From: an uncultured Bacilli bacterium
Lineage (GTDB): Bacteria; Bacillota_I; Bacilli_A; RFN20; CAG-449
Direction of reading: 5' to 3'
NCBI GenBank assembly: GCA_947632435.1
Contig: CANRPC010000001.1
Span: 75,986-139,985 of the forward strand
Length of the DNA: 64,000 nucleotides
The number at the start of each line of letters is the position of its first letter. Position 1 is the stretch's first letter. Of the stretch, positions 1,299 through 32,906 are shown in pieces. The translations under genes were made by a program, and so were the position numbers. The notes under the pieces are model-generated. The model was not told the origin of the DNA and did not search any database. It worked only from the letters and a program-made list of their open reading frames with translations.

Positions 1299-1303
1299 AG
1301 ATT

Positions 1304-3186: not shown

Positions 3187-3206
3187 TAAAAAAGGAGATA
3201 TAAAAT

Positions 3207-4589: not shown

Positions 4590-4606
4590 AAAGGATGTAA
4601 AACAAT

Positions 4607-5986: not shown

Positions 5987-6017
5987 TTTTATTCAATCTA
6001 ACAAGAGGAGATTTTAT

Positions 6018-9116: not shown

Positions 9117-9127
9117 GAGAAAGCAAA

Positions 9128-10555
9128 ATGAAAAAGAGTAGTTTTTACTTAACTTTATGTGTACTTAGTGCTATATCGTGTTTAACAGGATGTAATAATT
9201 CAAATGGTAAAAGTGAAGATGCACCATTGAAAGTTAGAATTTCAGAAACTTGCCCTAAGCTTGTTCAATGTGGCAATACTATTAATCTTCAAGCTGATGT
9301 TTTAAATGATAAAAGCAATAAAGGTGTAACTTGGACTGGAGATGATAATTTAGTTGCCACGATTAGTGATGATGGTAAATTAACAGGTCTTTCTCAAGGT
9401 ACAGTTAAAGCAACCGCGAAAAGTATTACTGATCCAACTCAAACGGCAGAAGTAGTTGTCAATGTAAATTATAATACTTTGATTTCTGTTGAAATAACGA
9501 CAAAACCTTCCTCAATTAAAGTTGGAGAAACCATTAAATTAAGTGCATCAATAAATGGTGATCCCACAAATAGTGGTATTGGTTGGATGGTTAATAATGA
9601 GGCTTTAGCTACGATTGATCAAGAGGGAAATCTCACTGCGATTCAAATGGGACTTGAAGGAAAAATAATTGTTAATGCCTTTTCGAAAATTAATCCTTCA
9701 GCTACAAGTTCAAATTTAACAATTGAAATCAAACCATCAAGTAATGGTGAAGAAGCCATTGAAGATTTAGTTGAAAAAGTTGGCGATTATCGTTTAATCT
9801 TTAAAGATGATTTTTCATCTAATAACCTTAATAAAAATAACTGGGAAGTTATGATTGGTGATGGTAAAAAATATGGAGTTACCGATTGGGGTAATGATGA
9901 AAAGCAATTTTATCGCGAAGATAATATTAAATTTAAAGATCAAGAAATGTATATTGTTGCTAAAAAAGAGACAGAACGTAATGATACAAGAGGAAAAACT
10001 TATACCAGTGGACGAATTCGTTCTGAAAATTTAGTTTCTTATACATATGGTAGAATTGAAGCTCGTATTGCTTGCCCATTTGGTGATGGTCTATGGCCAG
10101 CATTTTGGATGTTACCTGATTCAAAAGATAATCCTTATGGAGGTTGGCCAAACAGTGGTGAAATCGATATTATGGAAGTAAGAGGTCGTCAACATTATTC
10201 AATGTTTGGAACAATCCATATTTCCGATGAATATGGAATTCATGATACACGTGCTTCTGATTATTTATTTCCAGAAGGTCAAGATATATCTAATTATCAT
10301 AAATACGCGGTTGAATGGGAAGAAGGATCTATTAAATGGTTTTGTGATGATGTACTTTATCTAACAATTGATAAAGATCATAATCCTTGGACATTAAAAG
10401 AAGGTACAGGAGTTTTCCCTTCACCATTTGATAAAAAATTTCATATTTTAATTAACATGGCAGTAGGAGGAAATTTTGATGGCAATCGTTTACCATTAGA
10501 TAAAGAACTACCAGCTTATATGAAAATTGATTATGTAAAATGGTTTAAAAAGTAG
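9128..10555 (+). CDS. GH16 endo-beta-1,3(4)-glucanase (laminarinase) lipoprotein with two N-terminal Big_2 domains
   Basis: Signal peptide plus lipobox (LTGC). Two Ig-like segments. The C-terminal domain has the GH16 catalytic motif SGEIDIMEV (ExDxxE) and WPAFWMLP. Confidence 0.75.
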   Translation: MKKSSFYLTLCVLSAISCLTGCNNSNGKSEDAPLKVRISETCPKLVQCGNTINLQADVLNDKSNKGVTWTGDDNLVATISDDGKLTGLSQGTVKATAKSITDPTQTAEVVVNVNYNTLISVEITTKPSSIKVGETIKLSASINGDPTNSGIGWMVNNEALATIDQEGNLTAIQMGLEGKIIVNAFSKINPSATSSNLTIEIKPSSNGEEAIEDLVEKVGDYRLIFKDDFSSNNLNKNNWEVMIGDGKKYGVTDWGNDEKQFYREDNIKFKDQEMYIVAKKETERNDTRGKTYTSGRIRSENLVSYTYGRIEARIACPFGDGLWPAFWMLPDSKDNPYGGWPNSGEIDIMEVRGRQHYSMFGTIHISDEYGIHDTRASDYLFPEGQDISNYHKYAVEWEEGSIKWFCDDVLYLTIDKDHNPWTLKEGTGVFPSPFDKKFHILINMAVGGNFDGNRLPLDKELPAYMKIDYVKWFKK

Positions 10556-10564
10556 GAGGAAACT

Positions 10565-11968
10565 ATGGGATTATTTAATAGCAAATCTTTAGAAGAAAAA
10601 GAAGAATTAAAGCGTAAAGAAGAACAAGAAAAATTACTTGAAAAGCAACGTGATCGTATTTATAAAGAAACAATTAATTATCAAAAAGAACATCAAAAAG
10701 AATTAAAAGTTGCTCCGCAAGATAGTTTTATTTCTTTACAACATATTAACAAGATTTATGGAAATAGAGTTCAAGCAGTTTTTGATTTTAATCTTGAAAT
10801 TAAAGAACATGAATTCGTAGTACTTGTTGGCCCTTCAGGATGTGGTAAATCGACAACTTTAAGAATGGTCGCAGGACTTGAAGCTATCACTTCTGGTGAT
10901 TTATATATTGATAAAGTTTATTCTAATGATTTAGAGCCTAAAGATCGTAATTTATCAATGGTATTCCAAAATTATGCTCTTTATCCTCATATGTCAGTAT
11001 ATAATAATATGGCATTTGGTTTAAAAATGCGTAAGTTACCAAAAAATGAAATTGATGAAAAAGTTCATCGTGTAGCAAAAATCCTTCAACTAGAAGATTA
11101 TTTAGATCGTAAACCAAAAGCATTATCAGGTGGTCAATGTCAAAGAGTGGCTTTAGGTAGAGCAATTGTTCGCGATACAAAATTATTCTTAATGGATGAG
11201 CCTTTATCAAATCTTGATGCTAAATTAAGAGTGCAAATGAGAAGTGAAATTGTCAATTTACATGAAACATTAGGTTCAACCACAATTTATGTTACTCACG
11301 ATCAAACAGAAGCAATGACAATGGCAACAAGAATTGTCGTTATGAATAAAGGACGTATTCAACAAGTTGGTACGCCTAAAGAAGTTTATAATCATCCTAG
11401 CAATATTTTTGTGGCCACATTTATTGGTTCTCCAGCGATGAATATATTATCCGCGACTTATGATAAAGGAAAAGTTATTTTAAAAAACGGATTTGAAATT
11501 CAATTGCTTGAAGAACAAATAAAATTACATGATGAATTTTATAAAAATGAATATGATTCTCTTATGAAAAGAAAAGATGAACTTCTTCATAATGAAGAAA
11601 CATTAAGTGAAGAAGAAAAAATTCTCAATAAACAAGAAATTGAAAAAATTGAAAAACATTTAGAAACGATTAAAGAATATCGACAAAGTAATAACCATCC
11701 AATTTATTTTGGAGTTCGTCCAGAAAATATTACCGAAGAAGGTTTGTCAACTAATGCGACAAAACTATCTACTCCGCTTGAAATTGAAGTATTTACTGCT
11801 GAATTATTAGGGCAAGAATATTATATTCATGCTAATATTAAAGATGAAAGACTTATTTCCAAGATTTCCGCGATTAGAGATATTTCCAATCATGAAAAGA
11901 TGAAATTAGTCTTTGATTTAGAAAAGATTCATCTTTTTGATATGATGACACAAAAATATATGGCATGA
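10565..11968 (+). CDS. msmK: Sugar ABC transporter ATP-binding protein (MsmK/MalK family) with an N-terminal coiled-coil extension and an insertion in the C-terminal regulatory domain
   Basis: Walker A (GPSGCGKST), Q-loop, signature (LSGGQCQRV), Walker B (LFLMDEP), H-loop (VTHDQ). About 65 extra charged residues at the N-terminus and a ~60-aa charged heptad-like insertion in the TOBE-like C-terminal domain. 467 aa, versus about 370 for typical MalK. Confidence 0.8.
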
Positions 11969-12459
11969 GTTACAATTTATTAGATGATAAATATATTCAA
12001 GATTTAAAAAAGAAAATTACTAATTATCGTTTAAGTATAATTTTCTTATTGCTACTTGGAATATTAATAACGTTTTTGATTTTTTTCTTTCAAACTAGAA
12101 AGACAATGACGATTTTCATATGGCTTGGAACATTATCAATAAGTATTATTTTAATTACCATTTCATTTATTGTTTTTACTTTATATGAACCAAAACAAAA
12201 GGTTTTACAAAAACTTAATAAAGCAAAAAAAAATTCACCTATTAAATATGATTTTTTGCTTACTAATTATTATGAAAATTATGTTACATATGATGGCTTT
12301 CATGCTAAAAAAATAATGGTAAGAAATAATGATAGTGAAATAGATTTAACATATTTTTTAAATGCTGAAGACGCTATTAAATTAGAAATCGGAAAACATT
12401 ATGAAATGGAAGTTGTAGATCGTCTTATCCTTTTCATAAAGGAGAAACAAGATGAATGA
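11965..12459 (+). CDS. Hypothetical small membrane protein (2 TM)
   Basis: 164-aa ORF overlapping the msmK stop. Two hydrophobic helices. No recognisable motif. Confidence 0.3.
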
Positions 12460-13096
12460 ACTTACAAAACGTAAAATAAAACATTATATTGAATATAATT
12501 GGATTATCATTATATTAATTTTTATTATAACTTATGTTTTTTTCTTCTATACGATATCAAATATTGATGCTTATAAAAGTTATGAACAATTAAATTTTTT
12601 TATTGTTGCGCGAGCTTTAAAGGATGAAGATTTAAAAAACGATTTAATGAATCAAGATAAACGAATTCTTAAATATAATTGGTATTTATATCCTCCTGAA
12701 TTAGATAATTTATATGTCCTTTATCAAGCATTTGGTGAAAACGCTGATATATTATTATTTAGTAAAAGTGATTTAGAAGATTTATCTTCGACAATTAAAG
12801 GAACATTTTTACAAATTGAAGGTGAATTTAAAAACTCATTAATGGAAGGTGTTAAAGAATTAGAAACATTTCAATATGAAAATAAAGATTATGGATTAAA
12901 AATATTTGATTGCAATAATGAAGATTATAATAATAAATATAATTTTTCAGCTTTTTTAGATTTTGCAAATAATGATGATTATTATTTAGTTTTTGCCAAA
13001 AATAGTAAAAAGTTTTGTGAATGTGGAAATAATTCTAATGATATGGCTCTAGTTGCTGCGAATACTATTTTAAGGAGATATGCCTATGAAAGTTAA
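12452..13096 (+). CDS. Hypothetical protein with an N-terminal TM anchor
   Basis: 214-aa ORF overlapping its neighbours (translational coupling). One N-terminal hydrophobic helix. Confidence 0.3.
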   Translation: MNELTKRKIKHYIEYNWIIIILIFIITYVFFFYTISNIDAYKSYEQLNFFIVARALKDEDLKNDLMNQDKRILKYNWYLYPPELDNLYVLYQAFGENADILLFSKSDLEDLSSTIKGTFLQIEGEFKNSLMEGVKELETFQYENKDYGLKIFDCNNEDYNNKYNFSAFLDFANNDDYYLVFAKNSKKFCECGNNSNDMALVAANTILRRYAYES

Positions 13097-13898
13097 ATAT
13101 AATAGTAATTTGCCACGTACACGTTTTGAACAAATAATTGATGTTCTACATTATCATCTTTTTGAAATAATTATTGCAAGTATCTATACTTTTTTATTTT
13201 CTCTTCCTGCATTTTTATGGATAATATTTACTTCTTCTACTTCAATTTTTCAAGGAGAATATTTATTAAATGTCATCTTGATTTATGGAGTATTAGCAAT
13301 TTTAATTGGAGTAATGGGATTAGGATATGCTGGAGGTTTATATTTTTTTAAACGCTTACTATTTAATGAAGGGGTAAATATAAATAAAGATTATATTATT
13401 GGGATAAAGAAAAATGGAAAAAATTTATTTATTATCTTTTTGTTACTTGGATTAAGTTATTTATTATTACATACTTCTATATCCATGATTAATAATTTAA
13501 ACTTAGAAATAAATTTAAAAATAATTATGATAGGTATATCATATGCTTTATTTTTTATTATCATGATAATTATCTTATTTATGGCAACTCAGACAATATT
13601 ATACCAAGCATCATTTAAGCAATTATTATTAAATGGAATTTTATTTTGCTTTGGATATTTATATAAAAATATTTTTATTTTATTAATCTCTTGTTTACCA
13701 TTTATATTTTTTGAATTTTCTCTGATTGATATTTTAAAGTGGCTTAGTGTTTTAATATCGATGGGATTTTATTTTGGATTTTCACAAGTTGTACTTACTT
13801 CATTTTCATTTCATGTATTTGATTTAACAATTAACAAAAAACAATTTAAGGATTATTTAAGGAAAGGATTAGCAAAAAATGAAACAGATAACCTCTAA
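13080..13898 (+). CDS. Polytopic membrane protein, possibly DUF624/YesL-like (a family often encoded beside sugar ABC transporters)
   Basis: 272 aa with 5-6 TM helices. Position within a carbohydrate-utilisation operon. Family assignment is weak. Confidence 0.3.
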   Translation: MPMKVKYNSNLPRTRFEQIIDVLHYHLFEIIIASIYTFLFSLPAFLWIIFTSSTSIFQGEYLLNVILIYGVLAILIGVMGLGYAGGLYFFKRLLFNEGVNINKDYIIGIKKNGKNLFIIFLLLGLSYLLLHTSISMINNLNLEINLKIIMIGISYALFFIIMIIILFMATQTILYQASFKQLLLNGILFCFGYLYKNIFILLISCLPFIFFEFSLIDILKWLSVLISMGFYFGFSQVVLTSFSFHVFDLTINKKQFKDYLRKGLAKNETDNL

Positions 13899-15180
13899 AT
13901 TTAATGATTATTTTAAAGAATATAAACTAAAAAGTAGTGAGGAAACTCCACTTATTAAAGTTGATGAAACAGTATTTTTTCAAACACATTTAGGATTTGG
14001 TGGAGCTTTTACCGATGCTGCATGTTCGATTTTTTTAATGTTAGATGAAAAGCAAAAAGACGAAGTTATAAAAGCATATTTTTCTTTAGAAGGACTTAAT
14101 TATAACTTAGGAAGAATGACAATTGGATCTTGTGATTTTTCACGCTTTGAATACGATTATATTAAAGATTATAATGGTGAAGATTTTGCTTTAAATCATG
14201 ATAAAGAATATATTTTTGAATTTTTAAAAAGAGCAAATAAAGAAAATAAATTAACACTTATGGCTTCTTCTTGGTCAGCACCAAAAATGTATAAAACAAA
14301 TTTTGATAAATGTCATGGTGGTTATTTAAAAAAAGAATGCTATTCTTTATATGCAAAATATATGGTTAATTACATTAAACATATGTCTAAAGAAGGCTTT
14401 GATATCACATATTTAACAATTCAAAATGAACCAGAAGCAGTCCAAACATGGGAATCTTGTATTTTTACTCCTCAAGAAGAATTTGCTCTTGCAAAATGTA
14501 TTTATAAGGAGTTAAAAACTTATTCTTTAGATACAAAATTACTTCTTTGGGATCATAATCGTGATTCAATTGTAAATAGAGTTAAAGGTTATTATGAAGA
14601 TAAAGATGCCGAGGAAATAATTTATGGTTTTGCTTATCATTGGTATGATAATGGTTTTTATGATAATTTAACTATTGTTCATAATATGTGCCCTAATAAA
14701 CATCTTTTCTTCACTGAGGGATGTATTGAATTATTAAATTTGAATAAAGATGATCCAAAAAGTGCTTCAGGAACAATGCAAAATGCCTTACGTTATGCCA
14801 AAAATTATATTATGGATAGTTTGAACTATTCAGAAGCTTTTATTGATTGGAATTTACTTTTAAATGAACATGGTGGTCCAAATCATGTTGGTAATTATTG
14901 TGAAGCTTTAATAATGTTTGATAAAGACTTAAATAAATTGATATATAATCCTTCATATTATGTTGTTAAACATTTTGCTCACTTTATAAAAAAAGGCGCT
15001 AAAAGAATTAAGATTGAAAATGAAAGTGATATTCTTGCTACATCATATTTAAATCCTAATAATGAAGTAGTGGTTATTTTGTCAAATGAAAAAGAAGCAA
15101 CTTCTTTAACTCTTGAAATTAAAAATCAGAAGGTTTTGGTGGAATTACCTGCATATTCAATTACGACAATTATCTGCTAA
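13879..15180 (+). CDS. GH30 glycoside hydrolase (glucosylceramidase / endo-beta-1,6-glucanase-like), cytoplasmic
   Basis: The N-terminal region FQTHLGFGGAFTDAA is characteristic of GH30. The TIQNEPE region is consistent with a (beta/alpha)8 GH-A fold. No signal peptide. Confidence 0.65.
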   Translation: MKQITSKFNDYFKEYKLKSSEETPLIKVDETVFFQTHLGFGGAFTDAACSIFLMLDEKQKDEVIKAYFSLEGLNYNLGRMTIGSCDFSRFEYDYIKDYNGEDFALNHDKEYIFEFLKRANKENKLTLMASSWSAPKMYKTNFDKCHGGYLKKECYSLYAKYMVNYIKHMSKEGFDITYLTIQNEPEAVQTWESCIFTPQEEFALAKCIYKELKTYSLDTKLLLWDHNRDSIVNRVKGYYEDKDAEEIIYGFAYHWYDNGFYDNLTIVHNMCPNKHLFFTEGCIELLNLNKDDPKSASGTMQNALRYAKNYIMDSLNYSEAFIDWNLLLNEHGGPNHVGNYCEALIMFDKDLNKLIYNPSYYVVKHFAHFIKKGAKRIKIENESDILATSYLNPNNEVVVILSNEKEATSLTLEIKNQKVLVELPAYSITTIIC

Positions 15181-15206
15181 CTAATATTAAAAATGGAGAA
15201 TTATAC

Positions 15207-16625
15207 ATGGAAAAACCCAAGATTATAAAAATATTACCAATAAGTTTATTTTGTTCTTTGTTATTATCTTGTAATATTAATGTTACTTCAAAAATAACTT
15301 CATCTTCTAAAGAAACTTATAATGAAGTTAGTACATCAAAAGATGATTCTCAAATATCAAGTGAAACTTCTTCTTGTGAATCAACAACTTCAACCTCGAA
15401 CTCTTTAAGTTTTAATAATGAAGAAGAATTATTAATAAATAATGATTTTAATAGTTTATCTAGTTGGCAACTTATTGAAAGTCATGGATGTATTATAAAA
15501 GAAAAAAGTCATGGTAATTCTGAATTAGTTTTAGATGTCAATAATAGTTCTGCGATTGAAACTTGGTCTGCTCAATTAATTCAAAATTCTATTCCTTTGA
15601 AATATGGAAAAGAATATAAAGTTGAATTTATAATTAAAAGTTCTATTGATCGACCATTTAATTTTGTTCTTCAATCCATGGATTATTCTAAATACTTAAT
15701 TAATGAAATCATTGAATTGAAAGCAAATCAAGAGTATCATTTTTTTAAAATTGTTACTTGTAAAGTAGAAACATCTTATCTTTATGGTTTCTTATTAGGA
15801 AAAATTAATAACATTACAAATAATCAACATGAAATAACTATTAAAAATGTATCTTTAATTGGTGAAAAAAATAAACAAGAAACTGAAGGTTTAGATGGTA
15901 CAACTTCAATTCCACCTAGTGAAAGTCATTCAAGAAAACTACTTTGGAGTGATGAATTTAATGAAGAAGAAGTTGATAAAACAAAATGGACTTTTGAAAT
16001 TGGAAATGGTGCAGGTGGATGGGGAAATAACGAATTACAATACTATACAGATCGTAAGGAAAATGTCAAAGTTAGTAATGGTTCTTTAAAAATTATTGCT
16101 TTAAATGATCGTTATTTGAACTATAATTATTCTTCAACACGTATAATTTCTAAAGATAAATTTGAATTTCATTATGGATATGTTGAAGCTCGTATAGCTT
16201 TACCTTCTTTAGTTGGTATTTGGCCAGCATTTTGGATGCTAGGGGCAAATATTGATGAAGTTAGTTGGCCTAAATGTGGTGAAATAGATATTATGGAAGC
16301 AATTAATGATGAAAGTAAAGTATATTCAACGCTTCATTATAATGAAAATAATCATGTTTCAAAAGGTAATAATGGAAAAATGATTGTTGATAGAACTGAT
16401 TATCATATTTATGGTATGGAATGGCAAGAAGACATAATGAAATTTTATTTAGATGATGTCAATATATTTGAATTTGCTATTTCTTCAAATAATGGAACAA
16501 GTGCATTCCAAAAAGATTTCTTCTTTATTTTTAATGTTGCTGTAGGTGGTAATTGGCCTGGATTTAATATAGGAACAGCATTTCCTCAGACGATGAGTGT
16601 TGATTATCTAAGAGTTTATCAATAA
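15207..16625 (+). CDS. GH16 beta-glucanase lipoprotein with a Ser/Thr-rich linker and an N-terminal putative carbohydrate-binding region
   Basis: Signal peptide plus lipobox (LLSC). S/T-rich linker. C-terminal GH16 motif CGEIDIMEA and WPAFWMLG. Confidence 0.7.
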   Translation: MEKPKIIKILPISLFCSLLLSCNINVTSKITSSSKETYNEVSTSKDDSQISSETSSCESTTSTSNSLSFNNEEELLINNDFNSLSSWQLIESHGCIIKEKSHGNSELVLDVNNSSAIETWSAQLIQNSIPLKYGKEYKVEFIIKSSIDRPFNFVLQSMDYSKYLINEIIELKANQEYHFFKIVTCKVETSYLYGFLLGKINNITNNQHEITIKNVSLIGEKNKQETEGLDGTTSIPPSESHSRKLLWSDEFNEEEVDKTKWTFEIGNGAGGWGNNELQYYTDRKENVKVSNGSLKIIALNDRYLNYNYSSTRIISKDKFEFHYGYVEARIALPSLVGIWPAFWMLGANIDEVSWPKCGEIDIMEAINDESKVYSTLHYNENNHVSKGNNGKMIVDRTDYHIYGMEWQEDIMKFYLDDVNIFEFAISSNNGTSAFQKDFFFIFNVAVGGNWPGFNIGTAFPQTMSVDYLRVYQ

Positions 16626-16742: not shown

Positions 16743-18764
16743 ATGAAAACTAAAAATAAATCAAAATTATTAATTCTTGCAGCATTAACCTTAGTTAGTT
16801 CTTCAGCTGTAAGTTTAAAATCCTATGTTTTTCCACAAGAAAATATCATAGTAAAAGCTAAAGAAGTTTCGATAAATATTGATGCTTCTCAAACTAAAAT
16901 TGAAGGTGCGGGAGTTATAATATTTTTAAGTGATAAACCAAATATTACAGTCGATAATCTTAAAGTCACTATTAAAAGCTTTGAATCCACACAATTTGAA
17001 AACTATAAAGACACAATTCTTTCTAAAGGCATAGAAAATCCTGAATATAATCCTGAAAATGGACGTTTTTATGGCACCATTTCTAATGGTTTCCCTAATG
17101 GTTCTGATGTTAAAATTCTTATTAATGTTTCTTATGAACTAAATGGTGATACTTATTCTAAAGATCTTTTATTTGAAGGAAATAAATATAATCCAAATTA
17201 TGGTTTAAGTGCTTTAAATGCTCCTATGAATGCAAAAATTATTAATAACGTGTTAACTTTTGATGAAGTTAGTAATGCCACAGGATATCATATTGAATAT
17301 CGTAAAGAGAATAAAGTTGATAAAGTCTATGAACAAGATGTTCAAAATGGTGAAACTTTAAATCCGATTATTGCTCAAGGAACATATTATGTATTTATTA
17401 AAGCATTAGGTGATGGTGAAACTTATGGTGATTCAGAATATATTGAAGTAGATGGAACTTATATTGCTCAAGAAATTGAAGCACTTCCTATTCAAATTGA
17501 TGCCTCTTTAACTAAAATTGAAGGTGCTGGTGTTGAAATATATTTTGCTGAAATGCCTGATATTTCACTTTCTGATATTAATATAACAATACTAGATTTT
17601 GAATCAACGCAATTTGCTAACTACAAAGATTCAATTATGAATAATGGATTTAATAAAGTTGATTATAATCCTTCAACAGGACGTTTTTTTGGCACGATTG
17701 CTAATGGTTTTCCTAATGATTCTGATGTTGTAATAACATTTAGAATTATGTATTCATATAATGAATCTTTATATATGCAGGATTTAGTATTTGTTAGTAA
17801 TGTATATAAAGCAAATTATGGTTCATTAATTACTTTAGATAGTCCAACAAATGCTAGAGTTGAAGGTAATAAAATTTTCTTTGATGAAGTAGCTAATGCA
17901 AGTTCTTATCATATTCAATATCATAAAGAAAGTGATGATTCAGTTGTCTTTGAAAGTGATATAACTTCTGGTTCCGAATTAGAAAGTAGATTAGATGCTG
18001 GTTCTTATAAAATATATATTAAAGCGGTCGGAGATGAAGAAAACTATGCTGATTCAATATATGTTGAAGCATCTAATATTTATGTAGTTAGTGAAAAAGA
18101 ATTACCAACTGTTGGAGAACCAATTGCAATTGATGAAGAGCAAACGAAAATAACAGGCGCGGCAGTTGAAATATATTTAAAAGATAAACCAAATATTCCT
18201 TCTATTGCTATTCAAGCTAAACTTGTTTATTTTGATTCTAAAGAAGGAGATCCAAATAATCTTCTTGAATCACAATTCTTAAGTAAAGAATATAATCAAG
18301 AAAATGGGAGATTATTCTTAACTTTAGCAAATGGTTATGATGAATCATTGACACCAAAACATATCATTAAGATTTCTTATGAATTAAACGGAAAAACTTA
18401 TTTACAAGAATTACAATTTGTTAAAAATCAATATTGTACACTTGGCTTTACCTATGCTTTTGCCGAACAATGGAAACTTGATGAATCAGAAGTTAGATAT
18501 ATTGGAAAAGTGTATTTAGGTGATAAAACACTTGATGATTTAACAAAGAAATATTCCAAAATTAAATTCAAAATTGAAACAAAATATAATGGCGAAGATA
18601 AAATTGTGGAATTAGATACTAAATATGTTATGAAATCTATTAATGCTGGATTTAATGAAGAATTAACCGCAGAAGATGGTTGGTATTTCTGCTTAGTTAA
18701 TGTCAAAGTAGCAAGTGGAACAACAATTAGTAAAAATGCAGTAGTTACTGTTACAATAGAATAG
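16743..18764 (+). CDS. Secreted/surface protein with three ~200-aa internal repeats and a conserved C-terminal domain shared with 19967..22265
   Basis: N-terminal signal peptide. Repeat units begin IDASQTKIEGAGV / IDASLTKIEGAGV / IDEEQTKITGAAV, with about 620-bp nucleotide periodicity (16870, 17490, 18120). The C-terminus RYIGKVYLGDK...AEDGWYFC is paralogous to the end of the 20238 ORF. Confidence 0.5.
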   Translation: MKTKNKSKLLILAALTLVSSSAVSLKSYVFPQENIIVKAKEVSINIDASQTKIEGAGVIIFLSDKPNITVDNLKVTIKSFESTQFENYKDTILSKGIENPEYNPENGRFYGTISNGFPNGSDVKILINVSYELNGDTYSKDLLFEGNKYNPNYGLSALNAPMNAKIINNVLTFDEVSNATGYHIEYRKENKVDKVYEQDVQNGETLNPIIAQGTYYVFIKALGDGETYGDSEYIEVDGTYIAQEIEALPIQIDASLTKIEGAGVEIYFAEMPDISLSDINITILDFESTQFANYKDSIMNNGFNKVDYNPSTGRFFGTIANGFPNDSDVVITFRIMYSYNESLYMQDLVFVSNVYKANYGSLITLDSPTNARVEGNKIFFDEVANASSYHIQYHKESDDSVVFESDITSGSELESRLDAGSYKIYIKAVGDEENYADSIYVEASNIYVVSEKELPTVGEPIAIDEEQTKITGAAVEIYLKDKPNIPSIAIQAKLVYFDSKEGDPNNLLESQFLSKEYNQENGRLFLTLANGYDESLTPKHIIKISYELNGKTYLQELQFVKNQYCTLGFTYAFAEQWKLDESEVRYIGKVYLGDKTLDDLTKKYSKIKFKIETKYNGEDKIVELDTKYVMKSINAGFNEELTAEDGWYFCLVNVKVASGTTISKNAVVTVTIE

Positions 18765-18774
18765 GAGCAAAAAA

Positions 18775-19092
18775 ATGAAAAAGATTAAAAAAAGTGTTTT
18801 ATTAATTCTCAGCTTATGTGGATTAGTATTAGTTGGCTGTACATCTAAAACAAGTTCTTCTTCAAGTAATAAAGAACAAAGTTCATCTTTAGTTTCAGAA
18901 ACTACCTCAGAAGATTCTTTATCAACAGAAGAAGTTAATACAACAAGTCAATTAACTCCAACAAGTGAAAATAAAACTACTAAATCCGAGACAACCACAA
19001 GTAGTAAAGAGCAGACATCATCTAAAGAAGGCGGGTTTCAGCAAACTAGTGATAATTTAAGTGAGCAATGGGGTTCATTAATACCATATTAA
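18775..19092 (+). CDS. Small Ser/Thr-rich lipoprotein
   Basis: Signal peptide plus lipobox (LVGC). The low-complexity S/T/E-rich remainder is typical of a surface linker protein. Confidence 0.35.
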   Translation: MKKIKKSVLLILSLCGLVLVGCTSKTSSSSSNKEQSSSLVSETTSEDSLSTEEVNTTSQLTPTSENKTTKSETTTSSKEQTSSKEGGFQQTSDNLSEQWGSLIPY

Positions 19093-19889: not shown

Positions 19890-19939
19890 GAAATCGATTT
19901 CTATAAAATCTTGCAAATAAAACCGCTTTCATGTATAAT
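19890..19939 (+). promoter_or_regulatory. Promoter of the phase-variable surface-protein gene. It comprises the palindrome GAAATCGATTTC (19890-19901), a -35 TTGCAA (19911-19916), a cre-like site AAAACCGCTTTCA (19918-19931), and an extended -10 TGTTATAAT (19932-19939).
   Basis: Read directly. It is paralogous to 16667-16716. Confidence 0.5.
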
Positions 19940-19966
19940 TTATTTGAAAAGGAGAGAGTAAAAAAA

Positions 19967-22265
19967 ATGAAAAAATTTAAAAACTCAAAACTTATTGCTC
20001 TTACTGCTTTTATGCTATTTGGAGCAAATTATGCTGCACAAGCAAACTATAATAATAAAATTGTAACAAAAGCTGAAGCTAATGATGTAGTTACAATTTC
20101 AAACAAAGAAGATTTATTAAAGTTCTTTGATGGAAGTGCAAATTCATGTAATAAGGATGCTATTCTTACAGAAGATATAGATTTAGAAGGAAAAGTATTT
20201 GTTAATGTAGCTATGGCAGGCGAATACAACGGAAATTTTGATGGGGGGGGGGCATACAATTTCTAATTTTATTTCCAAAGGTCCTGGTTTATTTAATATA
20301 ATTGGTACTAATGGTAAAGTATCTCAATTAAATTTATCTGTTGATAATGGTGGTAAAATTGGTGGTGGAACTCTTGCTTATCAAAATAATGGTACAATTG
20401 AAAATTGTTTTGTACATTTAATTTTATCTGAAAGTTGTAATACATATGGAGCTATTTGTTTAGTAAATAGTGGATCAATTATTAACTGTAAAACTTATAT
20501 TGAATTTTTAGATAGTGCTACTTCATCAAATAACATTTATCCAATTGCAAAAAATGGAACATTTACTGATTGTAGTTATAACTCTAATCAAACAAATGGA
20601 TTTGCAAATTTTGAAAAAGTAACTCGTGATGAATCTATTACACCAAATCAAAATATGCCAACATTAGATCAACTTGAAACACCAACAGATGTTAAAGTTG
20701 AAAATAATGTTCTTTCATTTAATCCTGTTGATAATGCAACAAATTATGAAGTTACTTACTTTGATGAAACTGGAAGTAATAAAAAAACAGAAAAAATTTC
20801 ATCAACTACTTATACTTTAACTGATGACTCACTCTTTCCTGGAACATACACAATAAAAGTTAGAGCCTTAGGCGATAATAAAACATATGCTAATTCAGAA
20901 TATGCTATTGCCACAGGTACTTTTGTTGTTGAAGAAAAAGAAGGTTTACCAATTGAGATAAATAATGCACAAGAAACTTCAATTAATGGAGATCAAATAT
21001 TTATTTATACTTCAAATTTAGCTAATGCAAAACAGGAAGATATAAGCATTAGAATAGTTAATATTGAAACAAATAATCATAATAATGATGAATTTTATCA
21101 ATCTTTAATTAATTCATCAGCTAAAATTCAAGAATTTAATGTTTATTCTGATGCAAGTCAAAGAATTTATGGAATATTGAGTAAAGGTTTACCAGAAGAT
21201 AATGAACGAATAATTACGGTTGAATTAAGTGCAGTAGTAGGTAAACAATTCTATAAACAAAAATTAATTTTTGTAGGAAAAGAATATAAACCTAATTATG
21301 GTAAAATAGAAGAATTATCTGCTCCAACAAATGTTTCATTAGTTGATAATACTTTAAAATTTGATGAAGTAGAACATGCTATTGGATATCATGTTCAATA
21401 TCGTAATGTTAATGGTGGTGTAGAAGCTGAACATGATATAGAACCTAATGGTGAATTAACAGCCAAATTAGAAGAAGGAACATATACATTATTTTTAAGA
21501 GCTCTTGGTGATGAAATAGATTATACATCATCTTCATATGTTGAAGTTTCTGAAAAATTTATTGTTGCTGGAAAAGAATTACCTGAACTTGGTGCTCCAA
21601 TAAAGATAAAAGAAGAAGGAACAAAAATTTCGGGTGATCAAGTATTTATTAGATTTGAAGATGCTCCAGATATTACAAAAGAAGATTTCACTATAAAAAT
21701 TATTGATTGTGTATCTGCAAGCGGAAATGGAGTTGCTGATGTTATTAAAAAACAAACTCTTAAAAAAGTAAGTTATTCAAATGGTGAATTATATTGCACA
21801 ATGGGTGCAGGTATTCCTGATGAAACTGATTTAGTTACAACAATTAGAGTTTCATATGAAAAAGATAATGTCGTTTATTTACAAGAATTAGTATTTGATG
21901 GATTAAAATATGATTCTGAAAGAGCTGAAGATTGTAATTTAGGATATGCATATCCATATGGCACCCAAATGAGTCAAAATAATACAAAGATTCGTTATAT
22001 TGGTAAAGTATATGTTGGTGCTAAAGCAGTTGTAGATTTATCAAGTAAATATGCAAATATTAAATTTAAAATTGCTGCAAAAATCAAAGGTGAAGAAAAG
22101 TGGACTGAATTAACCACTAATATGATTATGAAATCATTAAATGCTGGATTTGGTGAACAAGTTACTGCAGAAGATGGATGGTACTATTGTGCGGTTGTAA
22201 TAAATAATTTGCCTACAGGTGAAAACGCTTTTGAGCCTCTATCTTTCACTGTGACATTAGAATAA
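19967..22265 (+). CDS. Large surface protein (signal peptide, GLUG-like motif, repeat region, conserved C-terminal domain). It is split into two ORFs (to 20266, and 20238 onward) by a +1 frameshift inside a G10 homopolymer. This is probably a phase-variable gene currently in the OFF state.
   Basis: ATG 19967 with RBS aaaggagag. Signal peptide MKKFKNSKLIALTAFMLFGANYAAQA. ORF1 ends ...GNFDGGGAYNF* and ORF2 continues GGGHTISNF. With 9 or 12 G the reading is NFDGGGHTISNF, which matches the FDGnGhtIsN GLUG-like motif of the paralogs at 3207 and 4607. Confidence 0.6.
20243..20252 (+). repeat. Poly-G homopolymeric tract (G10) inside the surface-protein gene. It is a candidate slipped-strand phase-variation switch.
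   Basis: Ten consecutive G in a genome of roughly 28% GC. The tract sits exactly at the frameshift joining the two ORFs. Confidence 0.8.
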
Positions 22266-22278
22266 GGAGAATTTGCAT

Positions 22279-22419
22279 ATGAAAAAGATTTATGAAAAAC
22301 CAATTTTAAATATAGATGAAATTTGTTTAGAAGATGTCCTTACAATTTCAGGCGCAGAAGATGGCATTGGAACTGAATTTGATTTTGAGAATTTAGAATG
22401 GAATGATGGTCTATTTTAA
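22279..22419 (+). CDS. Unannotated 46-aa small ORF (MKKIYEKPILNIDEICLEDVLTISGAEDGIGTEFDFENLEWNDGLF). It may be a double-glycine-type leader peptide.
   Basis: ATG 22279 with SD aaggag 8 nt upstream, directly after the surface-protein stop, followed by a terminator. A leader-like LEDVLTISGA precedes an acidic 20-aa C-terminal part. Not in the ORF track (under 60 aa). Confidence 0.25.
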   Translation: MKKIYEKPILNIDEICLEDVLTISGAEDGIGTEFDFENLEWNDGLF

Positions 22420-22452
22420 TTATTAAGTTTCTTAATTTAATTAAATTTTATA

Positions 22453-22482
22453 AACGGGGATGAATAATCCTCGTTTTGTTTT
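22453..22482 (+). terminator. Rho-independent terminator
   Basis: Stem AACGGGGA / TCCTCGTT (one G-U pair) with a 7-nt loop, followed by a T-rich tail. Confidence 0.5.
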
Positions 22483-28463: not shown

Positions 28464-31045
28464 ATGGATAAAAGGGCATTACAAACTTATGCTGAATGGG
28501 CTAAGAAAAACTTAGAAAATCAAATTGAAGTTTCACTAAAAACATTAGGAATTAATAGCGATAATGATATTAAACAAGCTAGAAAAGTTGGTGAATATAC
28601 GATTATAGATGGAGATTCTAATTCCTATTCAGCAGATTTATATGATAAGCGAAATGATATTACAAATTTGATTAAATCAGATGGTTACAAAAATGTTATT
28701 GAAGAGTTTGCGTATACTTGGTTTAACAGAATAATAGCACTTAGATTTATGGAAGTTCATGACTTTTTACCTCACGGATTTAGAGTGCTTTCTTCTAGAG
28801 ATGGTAGTTTTGAGCCTGAAATTCTTAAAAATCTTAATTATGTTAAAGATGATTTAAAGTTAGATATGAGTATTATAGCTAGTCTTAATTCTCAAGGTAA
28901 AATAGAAGAAGTTTATCGATATGTTTTATTTAAACAATGTAATGCATTATCTAAGATTTTACCTATGCTTTTCAGTAATGAAAGTGCATATTTAGAATTA
29001 CTTCTTCCAAAAGCATTATTAAAAGGTGACACAATAATTACTAAACTTTTAGAAATAGATGAAAATAGCTTTTTAGAAGATGTAGAAGTAATTGGTTGGT
29101 TATATCAATTTTATGTAGCAAATGATAGACAAGAATTTAGAGATGCCAAAGTAGTCACAAAAGATTTAATTCCAACATTAACACAAGTATTTACTCCAGA
29201 TTGGATTGTTCGATACATGACAGAAAATTCACTTGGTAGATTGTGGCTAGAAAGTTATCCTAATTCTTCAATAAAATCAGAAATGAAATATTATGTTGAA
29301 GATGCAAAACAAGAAGAAGATATTCAAAAGAAAATTAATGAAATTAAATACAAAAATGTAAATCCCGAAGACATTAAAGTTATTGAACCATGTTGTGGCT
29401 CGGGACATATTTTAGTGTATATTTTTGATTTATTATTTAAAATGTATGAAGAAAAGGGTTATCAACAAAGAGAAATTCCTTCTTTGATATTATCTAAGAA
29501 CATATATGGATTAGAAATTGATAAACGTGCTACACAGCTTGCCACATTTTCATTAATTATGAAAGCAAGAAAATTAAATAATAGGTTTTTTAATGAAAAA
29601 TATTATGTTGAACCAAATGTAATTGAAATTTATGATTCAAGATTCTTTTTGGACTTTGATTATAAATCACAAATGGTAAGTTTAAAATTATTTAGTGACG
29701 AAGAAATAAAAGCAACAACTGAACTTATTGAAACATTTAGGTATGCCAAAACAATTGGATCACTTTTAATTATGCCTAAGATTAATATTTCATTAGTTGA
29801 AAATGTAATTGAAAAATTAACTAATAAAGCTGTTAATACTATATTTAATAATAAATTTATTGCTAATGGTCCTAAATTTCTTTCAAAATTAATTAATCAA
29901 TATAAAATAATGGCTAATAAATATGATGTTATGATCACAAACCCACCATATCTTGGAATATCAAAAATGGAAGCAAATCCTAAACGATATTTATCAGCAA
30001 AATATCCTAATAGTAAATCAGATATGTTTGCAATGTTTATGGAAACACCATTTGTTAAGAAAAATGGATTTAGAGCTATGGTAAATCCTGATTCTTGGAT
30101 GTTTCTTGTTAGTTATGAAGAATTAAGAAAGCAAATTATATTTAATGAAAGCATAGTGAATATGATTCATTTAGGGCTTGGAGCTTTTGATGCAACTGTT
30201 CAAACGACTTCATTTGTTATACGTAACTCTGCAATTGCTGGAAATGGTGTTTATTTCCGCCTTGTTGATGAAAAAGATAAAGAAAAAGCATTTTTGTCGG
30301 GGGGGGGGGTATAACTGCTAAATTAATTACCTTTTATAAAATACCAGGTTGCATATTATCATATTGGATTTCTAAAAAAACCATTGATAACTTCTTAAAT
30401 AAAAAACTTGGCGATGTAATAGTTACACGTGAAGGAATGGCAACAGCAGATAATGATAAATTTTTAAGACTTTGGAGCGAAGTTGCATTCACTAAAATTT
30501 ATTTTTGTGCAACTGATTATATTAATGCATTATATACGGGATATAAGTGGTTTCCATATAATAAGGGCGGTGTATTTAGAAAATGGTATGGCAATAATGA
30601 ATATATTGTAAATTGGCAAAATGATGGATTTGATATAAAAAATAACAAAGATGAAAAAAGCAAAAAAATTAGAAGTCACAATTATAATGGCAAATATGGT
30701 TTTTTGGAAGGAATTACATGGAGTTCGCTTTCAACGGGGTCCTTTTCATTAAGATATTCTCCTAAAGGATTTTTGTTTGATTCGAAGGGAGCAAAAGGCT
30801 TTCCAAATAATTCGAACGAAATTTGGTTTATTATGGGGTTATTAAATTCTCAAGTTGCAAAACATTATCTATCGTTTATAGCTCCAACAATTGACTATAA
30901 AGTTGGTGATATTATTCAAATACCATTTATAAAAAACAAAGAAAATAAGGTTAACGAATACGTTAAAAAAAATATTCAAGTTGTAAAGAAAGATTGGGAT
31001 TCTTTTGAAACTTCATGGGATTTCAAAAAACACCCATTAATATAA
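28464..31045 (+). CDS. pglX: BREX PglX N6-adenine DNA methyltransferase (N-terminal domain, MTase core and first target-recognition module). It is interrupted by a frameshift in a G11 tract, giving ORFs 28464..30314 and 30311..31045.
   Basis: N-terminal YTWFNRIIALRFMEV (the conserved PglX start). SAM-binding EPCCGSGHIL and motif IV NPPY (MITNPPYLG). The protein continues without a stop in the -1 frame after the G-run (GGG ITAKLITFYKIPGCILSYWIS...). 9 or 12 G would restore the frame. Confidence 0.75.
30299..30309 (+). repeat. Poly-G homopolymeric tract (G11) within pglX. It is a candidate phase-variation switch, currently OFF.
   Basis: Eleven consecutive G located precisely at the pglX frameshift. 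G-tract phase variation of pglX is established for the Streptomyces Pgl system and other BREX loci. Confidence 0.8.
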
Positions 31046-31086
31046 GGAGCGCATTCCTCCTAAATGAATGCAAAGGAGGAAAAAAT

Positions 31087-31818
31087 ATGGAATCAAAACA
31101 TTTAAGATATGAGATAGCATCTACAAAATTTAATATGATACCTGGAAATCCTATTGCATATTGGATAAGTAATGCGTTTAGAAATATTTTTTCAATGGGA
31201 ATTCCTATCGAAAAAATAGGAGACGTTAGGACAGGGATATCAACTGGTAAAAATGATTTATATCTTCGTTTATGGTATGAGATATCTTGTAGTTCTATTA
31301 ATTTTTATCAAACTAATATTAATAAGATTAACTTAAATGAAAAAAAATACATTCCTTATAATAAAGGTGGTGATGCTAGAAAATGGTATGGCAATAATGA
31401 ATATGTAGTTAATTGGTCACAGCATGATAAATTTCATCGTAGCAGACCTAATTTTTCAGATATTTATTTAAAAAAAGGATTAACTTGGTCATTTGTTACT
31501 TCTGGCATGTTTTCATCAAGATATTATCCAAATGGTTTTTTATGGGATGTTGCTGGATCTCCTTGCGTTTTTAATGATGATAGCAGTTTATATTATATTT
31601 TAGGATTTCTATCTACTAAAATTGCTTCTAATATTTTAAAGTTAATTAATCCAACCCTTAATTGTCAAGTAATTGATATACAAAGAGTTCCTATAATTGA
31701 TACTGATAATGATAAGGATAAAGTTATAAATATCTCTATTATGTCAGTTAAAAAATCGAAAGATGATTGGGATTCTTTTGAAACTAGTTGGGATTTCAAA
31801 AAACATCCATTAATTTAA
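31087..31818 (+). CDS. Second, divergent copy of the PglX target-recognition module, encoded as a stand-alone ORF with a strong SD
   Basis: 244 aa from ATG 31087 (SD aaaggagg at 31072-31079). It is paralogous to residues after the G-tract in pglX: both contain AYWIS, LRLW, YNKGG..RKWYGNNEY.VNW, and end with the identical DWDSFETSWDFKKHPLI. The central regions are diverged. Confidence 0.6.
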   Translation: MESKHLRYEIASTKFNMIPGNPIAYWISNAFRNIFSMGIPIEKIGDVRTGISTGKNDLYLRLWYEISCSSINFYQTNINKINLNEKKYIPYNKGGDARKWYGNNEYVVNWSQHDKFHRSRPNFSDIYLKKGLTWSFVTSGMFSSRYYPNGFLWDVAGSPCVFNDDSSLYYILGFLSTKIASNILKLINPTLNCQVIDIQRVPIIDTDNDKDKVINISIMSVKKSKDDWDSFETSWDFKKHPLI

Positions 31819-31835: not shown

Positions 31836-32894
31836 ATGGCAAACAAGAACAATAACAAAGAAGTCACAATACGAAGTTCTGCTGCAGAATATTTAACTTA
31901 TGTGGCATCGGTAGGAGAAGAAACGCAAAATATAGAGGTAAGGTATGAAGATGAAAATATATGGTTAACGCAAAAAATGTTGGGATTACTTTTTAATGTT
32001 GAACCCCATACGATTAATTATCATATTAAAAAAATATTTGCAGATAGTGAATTAAGTGAAGATTCAGTTACTCGAAATTTTCGAATAACTGCCAGTGATG
32101 GAAAAACTTATGAAACAAAGCATTATAATCTTCAAATGATTATCGCAATTGGTTTTAAAGTTAACTCTGAAAGAGCCGTTCAATTTCGTAAATGGGTAAA
32201 CCAAATTGCATCCGAATATACAATTAAAGGATGGGTTATGGATGATGAGCGATTGATTAGAGGAACTTATTTAACTGATAAGTATTTTGAAGAACAATTG
32301 GAAAGGGTTCGTGAAATACGTGCCTCTGAAAGAAAGTTTTACCAAAAAATAACCGATTTATATGCTACTGCAATTGATTACGATAAGGAAGCTTTAGCAA
32401 CAAGAAGATTTTATGCCACAGTTCAAAACAAAATGCATTATGCTATTCATGGCCATACAGCAGCAGAATTAATTGTAGAACGGGCAGATTCAAAAAAAGA
32501 ACATATGGGACTTACTACATGGAAAGATAGTCCTGATGGAAAGATTCAAAAATCAGATGTAATTATTGCTAAGAATTACTTAACTGAATTTGAACTTAGT
32601 CAACTAAATAGAATGGTAAATGCGTATTTGGATTTTGCCGAAAATATGGCTCAAAGAAAAATTCCACTTACAATGGAAGATTGGGAAAACCGGCTTAATT
32701 CATTTATTGAAATGTTTGAATATGGGCTTTTAAAAGATGCGGGCAAAGTTTCAAACGAAATTGCAAGACTTCACGCAGAAACAGAGTTTGAAAAATATAG
32801 AGTAATTCAAGATGCATTGTTTATGTCCGATTTTGATAAGTATGTGCTTGAATTGGAAGAACATATTAAAAAAAATAAAAACAATAAGAAGTAA
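31836..32894 (+). CDS. rhuM: RhuM-family (virulence-protein RhuM / Fic-DOC-associated) protein embedded within the pglX region
   Basis: YNLQMIIAIGFKVNSERAVQFRKWVNQIASEYTIKGWVMDDERL is highly characteristic of RhuM-family proteins, which are commonly inserted between hsdM and hsdS of type I R-M loci. RBS aggag 7 nt upstream. Confidence 0.75.
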   Translation: MANKNNNKEVTIRSSAAEYLTYVASVGEETQNIEVRYEDENIWLTQKMLGLLFNVEPHTINYHIKKIFADSELSEDSVTRNFRITASDGKTYETKHYNLQMIIAIGFKVNSERAVQFRKWVNQIASEYTIKGWVMDDERLIRGTYLTDKYFEEQLERVREIRASERKFYQKITDLYATAIDYDKEALATRRFYATVQNKMHYAIHGHTAAELIVERADSKKEHMGLTTWKDSPDGKIQKSDVIIAKNYLTEFELSQLNRMVNAYLDFAENMAQRKIPLTMEDWENRLNSFIEMFEYGLLKDAGKVSNEIARLHAETEFEKYRVIQDALFMSDFDKYVLELEEHIKKNKNNKK

Positions 32895-32906
32895 AGGAAC
32901 AATTTT

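What the first reader, a model, noticed from the sequence alone, without database searches (positions are those of the whole stretch)
20243..20252. G10 homopolymer splitting a large surface-protein gene: candidate phase-variable adhesin
The ORF with a signal peptide (19967..20266) ends ...GNFDGGGAYNF*. The downstream ORF (from 20238) begins GGGHTISNF. With 9 or 12 G the fusion reads NFDGGGHTISNF, reconstituting the FDGnGhtIsN (GLUG-like) motif seen in paralogs at 3207 and 4607. That gives a ~765-aa secreted protein. This is the second long G-run in the window, and both lie in classic contingency genes (a surface protein and a restriction/BREX MTase).
Basis: seen in the sequence. Interest (0 to 1): 0.7.

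Follow-up and report, generated by a model that had tools for sequence, protein, structure and literature searches.

The report
Poly-G frameshift switch in surface-protein gene
A run of ten G's splits one gene for a large secreted protein in an AT-rich uncultured gut-type bacterium, and it looks like an ordinary slippage-prone on/off switch caught in the off position, although switching at this site was not observed.

Summary
G10 lies at 20243..20252. It separates a 99-aa ORF carrying a signal peptide (19967..20266) from a 674-aa ORF (20241..22265). G9 gives one 765-aa protein.

The two ORFs are one gene:
- A 756-aa homologue is collinear across the junction.
- About 77 homologous domain copies run straight through it.

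The tract is not a coding by-product. GGG makes up 4% of Gly codons in this 25.6% GC window, and none of 34 FDGGGH/Y motifs in other genomes uses a G-run longer than 5.

A frameshift contingency switch, currently OFF, is the best reading (about 0.6). Direct evidence is missing. The window and four other assemblies of the same strain all read G10, and no product of any other tract length exists among 15 billion proteins.

Indirect support:
- The window's only other G-run, G11 in BREX pglX, reads G10 in one sample.
- Three Synergistaceae paralogues of this family carry 5' poly-C tracts in mixed ON/OFF states.

"Adhesin" is unproven. G12 is probably not a functional ON state. This is a new member of a known kind and of modest interest.

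The parts
19911..19939 (+). Promoter-like site TTGCAA-17 nt-TATAAT, 28 nt upstream of the start codon
   Evidence: Consensus scan, 10 of 12 matches. Function is inferred.
19950..19958 (+). Ribosome-binding site AGGAGAGAG upstream of ATG 19967
   Evidence: Read directly from the sequence.
19967..20266 (+). ORF A, 99 aa: signal peptide MKKFKNSKLIALTAFMLFGANYAAQA plus the first third of the beta-helix domain, ending GNFDGGGAYNF* in the G10 state
   Evidence: The exact 99-aa product is called in three other assemblies. The signal peptide is judged by eye.
20243..20252 (+). G10 homopolymer. In the G9 state it would be three GGG codons for the G-x-G core of the conserved F-[DE]-G-x-G-[HY] motif (fusion residues 93-95).
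   Evidence: Invariance of G93 and G95 in 31 homologous domains. GGG is 4% of Gly codons.
20241..22265 (+). ORF B, 674 aa from ATG 20241 (the ATG is formed by gATG at the start of the tract): the rest of the beta-helix domain, the Fn3/Ig-like stalk and a C-terminal module. It has no signal peptide of its own.
   Evidence: This frame has one stop (the terminal one), against 51 and 115 stops in the other two frames.
20084..20606 (+). Right-handed beta-helix head domain (fusion aa ~40-213), cut by the tract after about 55 residues
20664..21923 (+). Tandem beta-sandwich stalk (fusion aa 233-652): two Fn3-like domains alternating with two copies of an unnamed beta domain
   Evidence: Internal and paralogue repeats. 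Model pLDDT 81.6. Foldseek hits to Fn3 and Ig tandem arrays.
21924..22262 (+). C-terminal ~110-aa module, shared with paralogue 16743..18764 and with otherwise unrelated secreted proteins P0116 and P0119. It may be an anchoring module.
   Evidence: The anchoring role is inference only.
22279..22419 (+). Conserved 46-aa acidic peptide ORF immediately downstream, preceded by AAGGAGAA. It also follows the intact homologue in L001.
   Evidence: It is called as a gene in L001, L002 and L003.
22452..22476 (+). Terminator-like hairpin with a T-run closing the transcription unit
30299..30309 (+). Second G-run (G11), inside BREX pglX (28464..). It is OFF as assembled. G9 or G12 gives an 859- or 860-aa PglX. 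It reads G10 in another sample.
16743..18764 (+). Intact paralogue (673 aa) with the same stalk and C-terminal module but no beta-helix head and no G-run
   Evidence: 37% identity over 535 aa.

Best explanation
One gene for a 765-aa secreted protein is interrupted by a slippage-prone poly-G tract. The protein has a signal peptide, a right-handed beta-helix head like the one in IgA1 proteases, a stalk of Fn3/Ig-like beta-sandwich domains, and a shared C-terminal module. The tract encodes the Gly-x-Gly core of the head domain's most conserved motif.

With 9 G's the gene is in frame and the full pre-protein is made and exported (ON). With 10 G's, as assembled, translation stops after 99 residues. 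The remaining 674 codons have no signal peptide and only a fragment of the head domain (OFF). Slipped-strand mispairing during replication adds or removes a G, so a population always holds a minority in the other state. That is a simple-sequence contingency locus.

Shown:
- the tract and its frame arithmetic
- that the two ORFs are one gene
- the improbability of the tract from codon usage
- the fold
- intact expression signals

Inferred:
- that length changes actually occur here at a useful rate
- that ON cells display the protein on the surface
- that the protein binds or processes a host or dietary glycan or protein
For: One gene:
- P0002 (756 aa) aligns at 40% identity over 98% of the fusion, straight across the junction. 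Its DNA there is TTTAATGGACAAGGGTAT, with no G-run.
- An exhaustive HMMER search found 702 relatives. 77 domain copies cover fusion aa ~40-210 as one stretch.
- G93 and G95 are invariant in 31 aligned domains.
- AlphaFold gives a single beta-helix with pLDDT 92.6.

Tract is non-random:
- It is one of only two G or C runs longer than 5 in 64 kb. Runs of at least 9 G are expected 0.02 times.
- GGG is 37 of 925 Gly codons. The seven other Gly-Gly-Gly tripeptides in the window all use only GGA or GGT.
- None of 34 FDGGGH/Y motifs in homologues from other genomes uses a G-run longer than 5, even at 55-65% GC.

Gene still looks live:
- There is a TTGCAA-17-TATAAT promoter, a ribosome-binding site and a terminator.
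- ORF B has no internal stop in 671 codons, against 51 and 115 stops in the other frames.

Tracts of this kind do change in this organism:
- The pglX tract is G11 in the window and in ERZ27249578. It is G10 in ERZ27249559, with identical flanks.

Same family switches elsewhere:
- Three paralogues in a Synergistaceae MAG carry C10 or C12 between the start codon and the signal peptide. One is in frame and two are out of frame.

Not an assembly slip:
- G10 is reproduced in four independent assemblies.
Against: - No length variation was seen at this tract. The window and four other assemblies all read G10.
- The products expected from G6, 7, 8, 9, 11, 12, 13 and 14 are absent from a 15-billion-protein collection. 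The ON form has therefore never been observed.
- The five sequences differ by one SNP over about 500 nt. They are one strain, probably from one study, so they are weak as independent samples, whichever way they are read.
- The pglX G10/G11 difference rests on contigs at about 3x coverage. It could be a consensus error.
- An intact paralogue (16743..18764) could make loss of this gene tolerable.
- The flank pattern, allowing any tract length, found nothing in JGI metagenomes.
Confidence: 0.6

Rival explanations
1. The gene is a plain pseudogene. An in-frame G9 run suffered a +1 slip that became fixed in this strain. The gene is on its way to decay and no adaptive switching is involved.
For: - Five of five assemblies are G10, and no ON product exists in 15 billion proteins.
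- A headless paralogue is intact next door.
- pglX is also out of frame in all three copies seen (G11, G11, G10), so the strain may simply be losing functions.
Against: - There is no second lesion in 2 kb of AT-rich coding sequence, and the promoter and ribosome-binding site are intact.
- This reading still needs the improbable in-frame GGG-GGG-GGG precursor, about 6e-5 per tripeptide from local codon usage.
- A G10 run is itself highly reversible according to established knowledge of homopolymer slippage. Even a "pseudogene" would therefore revert at appreciable frequency.
Confidence: 0.25
2. The G10 allele is itself expressed. RNA-polymerase slippage or ribosomal frameshifting on the G-run yields some full-length protein, so the tract tunes expression level rather than switching it on and off.
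For: - G10 is the stable consensus in all samples.
- ORF B stays open.
- Transcriptional slippage on long homopolymers is established in other bacteria. This rests on my own knowledge and was not tested here.
Against: - No frameshift-stimulating structure or slippery heptamer was examined or is evident.
- Known rescue by transcriptional slippage mostly involves A or T runs.
- There is no expression data.
Confidence: 0.07
3. Sequencing or assembly artefact. The true tract is G9 and the gene is simply intact.
For: - Homopolymers are error-prone.
- The supporting contigs have only 2-2.5x coverage.
Against: The window contig and four separately assembled samples agree on G10 with identical flanks. 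Random indel errors would not converge on the same wrong length.
Confidence: 0.05
4. These are two genuinely separate genes that happen to abut at a G-run.
For: Public gene calls list them as two proteins, P0005 of 99 aa and P0001 of 674 aa.
Against: - The junction falls inside one conserved domain and one predicted fold.
- The closest homologue is a single 756-aa protein.
- ORF B lacks a signal peptide.

Confidence: 0.01

Closest known systems
Simple-sequence contingency loci: poly-G/C tracts inside surface-protein and restriction-modification genes of Campylobacter, Neisseria, Haemophilus and Helicobacter (for example PMC8355987, PMC5084427)
   Same: - There is an intragenic G-run of 9-10 near the 5' end (codons 93-95 of 765).
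- One length in three is in frame.
- The gene encodes a secreted, surface-type protein.
- The genome is AT-rich, so such runs are otherwise absent.
- A second tract sits in a DNA-methyltransferase gene 10 kb away.
   Different: - The host is an uncultured low-GC Bacillota-like organism, not a classical pathogen.
- The tract sits in the most conserved motif of a folded domain rather than in a linker or signal-peptide region. Probably only G9, not G12, is functional.
- Switching has not been observed here.
Pgl/BREX pglX G-tract phase variation in Streptomyces coelicolor (Sumby and Smith 2003, as cited in PMC4365076)
   Same: The window's second G-run lies in pglX of a complete type 1 BREX locus and puts it out of frame. 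The tract length differs between samples, G11 versus G10.
   Different: - The host is AT-rich rather than GC-rich.
- Both observed lengths are OFF.
- This concerns the neighbouring gene, not the surface-protein gene under review.
Beta-helix domain of M26 IgA1 metalloproteases and of BACOVA_03286 (PDB 3n6z, 7uvk, 7jgj), the region that carries GLUG motifs
   Same: - Homologues give weak Pfam hits to Peptidase_M26_N, Pectate_lyase_5 and Glug.
   Different: - There is no M26 catalytic domain.
- The window protein itself passes no Pfam threshold, and a profile search of PDB sequences finds nothing.
- Sequence identity is 11-20%.
Gram-positive beta-helix adhesins (S. pneumoniae PfbA, L. reuteri SRRP binding region)
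   Same: - There is a beta-helix head on an extended stalk, and the protein is secreted.
- The stalk resembles Ig/Fn3 arrays such as the SiiE and Bap stalks.
   Different: - There is no LPXTG sorting signal and no serine-rich repeats.

Membership tests
SSR (homopolymer) contingency locus | Homopolymeric tract long enough to slip (at least ~8 nt) inside the reading frame or promoter | tested here: met
   G10 at 20243..20252 lies within codons 93-96. Runs of at least 9 G are expected 0.02 times in shuffles.
SSR (homopolymer) contingency locus | Single-unit length changes toggle between a full-length and a truncated product | tested here: met
   In-silico lengths: G9 and G12 give 765 and 766 aa. 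G7, 8, 10, 11, 13 and 14 give 98-112 aa.
SSR (homopolymer) contingency locus | Tract length is polymorphic between or within populations | tested here: not met
   All five assemblies read G10. Products of other lengths are absent from 15 billion proteins. The samples are one near-clonal strain at about 2x coverage, so the test is weak. The sister tract in pglX is polymorphic, G11 versus G10.
SSR (homopolymer) contingency locus | Measured high-frequency, reversible switching of phenotype | not testable with these tools
   This needs reads or cultures.
SSR (homopolymer) contingency locus | Tract is maintained against codon and mutation bias, which is the signature of selection for mutability | tested here: met
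   GGG is 4% of Gly codons. The seven other GGG tripeptides avoid it. None of 34 homologous FDGGGH/Y motifs elsewhere uses a G-run longer than 5.
Pfam GLUG (PF07581) / Peptidase_M26_N | Match to the family HMM above the gathering threshold | tested here: not met
   The fusion protein and its head domain match no Pfam family. Four of 31 homologues hit M26_N and two of 31 hit Glug, at E 0.004-0.15.
Pfam GLUG (PF07581) / Peptidase_M26_N | Same fold as the IgA1-protease beta-helix domain | tested here: met
   [not shown]
Cell-surface adhesin | Export signal | tested here: met
   The N-terminus MKKFKNSKLIALTAFMLFGANYAAQA has a basic n-region, a hydrophobic core and AQA. It is conserved in P0002. 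It was judged by eye, and no predictor was run.
Cell-surface adhesin | Recognised surface-anchoring signal (LPXTG sortase signal, lipobox, or known wall-binding repeat) | tested here: not met
   There is no lipobox Cys and no LPXTG followed by a hydrophobic tail. The C-terminus reads ...NNLPTGENAFEPLSFTVTLE. There is no Pfam wall-binding domain. A shared C-terminal module of unknown role is present.
Cell-surface adhesin | Demonstrated ligand binding | not testable with these tools
   Only architecture is available: a beta-helix head on an Fn3/Ig-like stalk.
BREX type 1 (context of the second G-run) | BrxA, BrxB, BrxC, PglX, PglZ and BrxL in one cluster | tested here: met
   Pfam hits to BrxA, BrxB, BrxC domains, Eco57I/N6_Mtase and PglZ. 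NCBIfam BrxL at 1078 bits.

The most novel reading that the evidence does not exclude
This beta-helix-headed secreted protein family may be a recurrent, independently evolved target of homopolymer switching in uncultured anaerobes of unrelated phyla.

- An AT-rich Bacillota-like lineage placed poly-G inside the conserved FDGxGH motif.
- A Synergistaceae genome placed poly-C between the start codon and the signal peptide of three paralogues.

In the window organism the surface protein and BREX defence would form a small set of G-tract contingency loci. If so, simple-sequence phase variation, studied almost only in pathogens, is also a working strategy of commensal or environmental anaerobes. 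That would complement the invertible-promoter systems known from Bacteroides.
Probability: 0.3. Interest if true: 0.55.

Novelty: new member of a known kind. Interest (0 to 1): 0.35.

Why it matters
If the tract switches, it marks this uncharacterised protein as one the bacterium needs to show or hide. The likely pressures are phage, host immunity or changing substrates. The protein is a beta-helix head on an Ig-like stalk, encoded beside a beta-glucan utilisation cluster and a BREX island.

It also gives a concrete, cheap test for simple-sequence phase variation in an uncultured low-GC gut-type bacterium: count tract lengths in reads. The mechanism itself is textbook, so the value lies in annotation and ecology rather than concept. 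Public annotation currently lists two unrelated hypothetical proteins.

Tried and rejected
- **Pfam and PDB sequence searches.** Pfam found no family for the fusion protein. A profile search of PDB sequences found nothing.
- **First genome-contig scan.** The full-length alignment gave no confirmed relative, and the window genome is evidently not in that collection. A 31-sequence alignment was too divergent to seed a scan. The 7-sequence alignment worked.
- **JGI metagenomes.** A flank pattern allowing any tract length from 5 to 18 found no match.
- **Exact look-ups of alternative tract lengths.** Products expected for G6-G9 and G11-G14 of the surface gene are all absent.
- **Neighbouring genes.** Look-ups meant to recover more contigs spanning the tract returned only contigs already seen, or nothing.
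- **afdb50 fold library.** It was unavailable.
- **Rfam.** No RNA family was found in the window, so there is no known RNA frameshift element.
- **My own error on pglX.** I first thought G10 would restore pglX. Translation showed that the in-frame lengths are G9 and G12.
- **Other homopolymers near homologues.** C10 in L058 lies in 65% GC sequence and was not shown to belong to the homologue. C9 in L039 lies upstream of a homologue, and its role is unresolved.
- **Organism identity.** It could not be established beyond "low-GC, Bacillota-like". The nearest relatives of the head domain are uncultured Bacilli/Bacillota MAGs at 38-42% identity.

Full report
**1. Observation**

The run of ten G's is at exactly 20243..20252. 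ORF A starts at ATG 19967, preceded by AGGAGAGAG, and ends ...GNFDGGGAYNF* at 20266. ORF B runs to 22265 and begins MGGGHTISNF from an ATG (20241) formed by the gATG at the head of the tract.

Translating the region with 6 to 15 G's gives these products:
- G9 gives 765 aa, reading NFDGGGHTISNF.
- G6, G12 and G15 give 764, 766 and 767 aa.
- All other lengths stop after 98-112 residues.

The window is 25.6% GC. It holds only two G or C runs longer than five: this one and G11 at 30299..30309. Runs of at least 9 G are expected 0.02 times in dinucleotide-preserving shuffles. No other simple-sequence repeat of note is present.

**2. It is one gene**

- A word-indexed search found only four relatives. 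One of them, P0002 (756 aa), is 40% identical over 98% of the fusion and collinear through the junction (FNGQGYTVSNF). Its DNA there is TTTAATGGACAAGGGTAT, with no G-run.
- An exhaustive HMMER scan of 1.84 billion representatives found 702 relatives. Seventy-seven domain copies in them cover fusion residues ~40-210 as one contiguous unit.
- In a 31-sequence alignment, the two outer glycines of the tract-encoded GGG (fusion G93 and G95) are invariant. The middle residue varies (Q, N, G, R, C, A). No sequence has an indel there.
- AlphaFold models residues 28-235 as a single beta-rich domain (pLDDT 92.6, pTM 0.87), with the tract inside strand 63-76 of the model.

ORF A therefore holds the signal peptide and about a third of a domain. 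ORF B holds the rest without any export signal. The idea of two separate genes is refuted.

**3. The tract is not a coding by-product**

GGG is 37 of 925 glycine codons in the window's ORFs. The seven other Gly-Gly-Gly tripeptides use only GGA and GGT. Among 80 loci encoding relatives in other genomes, 34 FDGGGH/Y motifs were found. None is encoded with more than five consecutive G's, even in genomes of 55-65% GC. An in-frame GGG-GGG-GGG in a 25% GC genome is therefore unexpected, at about 6e-5 per tripeptide from local codon usage.

**4. What the protein is**

No Pfam family matches. A few homologues touch Peptidase_M26_N, Pectate_lyase_5 and Glug weakly. No PDB sequence matches a profile of the domain.

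By fold, the head is a right-handed parallel beta-helix:

Residues 233-765 model as a string of beta-sandwich domains (pLDDT 81.6) that match Fn3/Ig arrays.

The last ~110 residues recur in three places: the C-terminus of paralogue 16743..18764, the homologues P0002, P0006 and P0008, and two proteins with quite different N-terminal parts. That pattern suggests a shared anchoring or sorting module, which is inference only. There is no lipobox and no sortase signal.

The gene has a TTGCAA-17-TATAAT promoter-like site. A conserved 46-aa peptide ORF follows it, and then a terminator.

Upstream lies a beta-glucan utilisation cluster with an ABC transporter, two GH16 genes, a GH30 gene and two lipoproteins carrying the same head domain. 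Downstream lies a complete type 1 BREX island. "Surface binding or glycan-processing protein" is a fair description. "Adhesin" is not shown.

**5. Does it switch?**

Direct evidence is lacking.
- Four independently assembled metagenome samples (ERZ27249080, ERZ27249559, ERZ27249567, ERZ27249578; 2-2.5x coverage) carry the region with G10 and otherwise identical DNA, apart from one SNP. A one-off assembly error is therefore unlikely. These are clearly one strain, however.
- Exact look-ups for the products of G6, 7, 8, 9, 11, 12, 13 and 14 found none among 15 billion proteins.
- A flank pattern tolerant of any tract length found nothing in JGI metagenomes.

The ON allele has never been seen.

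**6. Indirect support**

(a) The other G-run, in pglX, gives a 616-aa truncated product at G11. The in-frame lengths are G9 and G12, giving 859 and 860 aa. The G10 product (618 aa) exists in the collection. Its contig, from ERZ27249559, is identical to the window except for one G fewer. ERZ27249578 shares G11. G-runs of this size therefore differ between samples of this strain, with the caveat that coverage is about 3x.

(b) A Synergistaceae MAG holds three paralogues of the same head-domain family. Each has C10 or C12 between the start codon and the signal peptide. One is in frame and two are out of frame. This is the classic picture of a phase-variable gene family, reached independently.

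(c) ORF B has no internal stop in 671 codons, against 51 and 115 stops in the other frames.

**7. Mechanism, with its status**

Shown:
- Tract length sets the frame.
- G10 yields a 99-aa secreted stub, plus an ORF with no leader.
- G9 restores the consensus motif.

From established knowledge of homopolymer slippage (contingency loci; for example PMC8355987 and PMC2831843 in the library):
- A G9-G10 run gains and loses units at rates far above base substitution, so ON and OFF cells should coexist.

Inferred:
- The switch is used adaptively.
- G9 is the only functional ON length, because G12 would insert a residue into an invariant G-x-G.

**8. Rivals**

- A fixed pseudogene (0.25) fits the uniform G10 and the simultaneous OFF state of pglX. 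It still needs the improbable G9 precursor, and a G10 run would revert readily.
- Expression through transcriptional or ribosomal slippage (0.07) cannot be tested here.
- Sequencing error (0.05) is contradicted by five concordant assemblies.
- Two separate genes (0.01) is refuted.

**9. Comparison and novelty**

This works like the poly-G contingency genes of Campylobacter, Neisseria and Haemophilus. The neighbouring pglX tract mirrors the published G-tract phase variation of Streptomyces Pgl (PMC4365076).

Membership in the contingency-locus class is met on anatomy, frame logic and codon-bias criteria. It is not met on observed polymorphism at this tract, and it is untestable on switching rate.

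It is a new member of a known kind. Three aspects are mildly unusual:
- the host, an uncultured low-GC Bacillota-like organism
- the placement of the tract in the core motif of a folded domain
- the convergent poly-C tracts in Synergistaceae homologues

Noticed in passing
window 28464..31045, G-run at 30299..30309: BREX type 1 pglX is split by G11. G9 or G12 would give an 859- or 860-aa protein. One other sample (L093, ERZ27249559) has G10 and another (L092, ERZ27249578) has G11, with identical flanks. All observed states are OFF.
   Followed up: yes
window 31015..31818 versus 30330..31045: A second copy of the last ~245 residues of PglX follows the first in tandem, at 42% identity. The 3' ends are nearly identical (54 nt at 91%; both end DWDSFETSWDFKKHPLI*). 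This could be an alternative C-terminal (specificity?) cassette. No recombinase or inverted repeats were looked for.
   Followed up: partly
L017 2892..2901, L027 2885..2896, L084 2893..2904 (Synergistaceae MAG S2R_St_13, JAUNJZ01): Three paralogous genes of the same beta-helix head family each carry poly-C (C10, C12, C12) between the start codon and the signal peptide. L084 is in frame. L017 and L027 are out of frame.
   Followed up: partly
window 22279..22419; L001 12286..12429: A conserved ~46-aa acidic peptide ORF with its own ribosome-binding site directly follows both the split gene and its intact homologue, upstream of the terminator. Its function is unknown.
   Followed up: partly
window 18775..19092; L001 12450..12716: A small Ser/Thr-rich lipoprotein ending WGxIxY/F follows paralogue 16743..18764. 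A similar one lies near the homologue in L001.
   Followed up: no
window 30..16625: A beta-glucan utilisation cluster: a 422-aa ORF and two ~313-aa ORFs that I took for the binding protein and permeases (not run against any library), a MalK-like ATPase, two GH16 genes (one with CBM_4_9), a GH30 gene, a 1061-aa protein with no Pfam match, and two lipoproteins (3207, 4607) carrying the same beta-helix head domain as the split gene.
   Followed up: partly
window 31836..33842: A RhuM-family gene and a 311-aa gene with no family match are inserted between pglX and pglZ inside the BREX island.
   Followed up: no
L039 2623..2631 (Cloacimonadota MAG OY781092): A C9 run lies about 95 nt upstream of the start codon of another homologue, and a tandem paralogue (L060) is adjacent. 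It could be a promoter-spacing tract. This is unresolved.
   Followed up: no
window 21924..22262; P0116, P0119: The C-terminal ~110-aa module of the split gene also ends two proteins whose N-terminal parts are unrelated to it. I did not classify those parts. This suggests a shared anchoring or sorting module with no Pfam model.
   Followed up: partly
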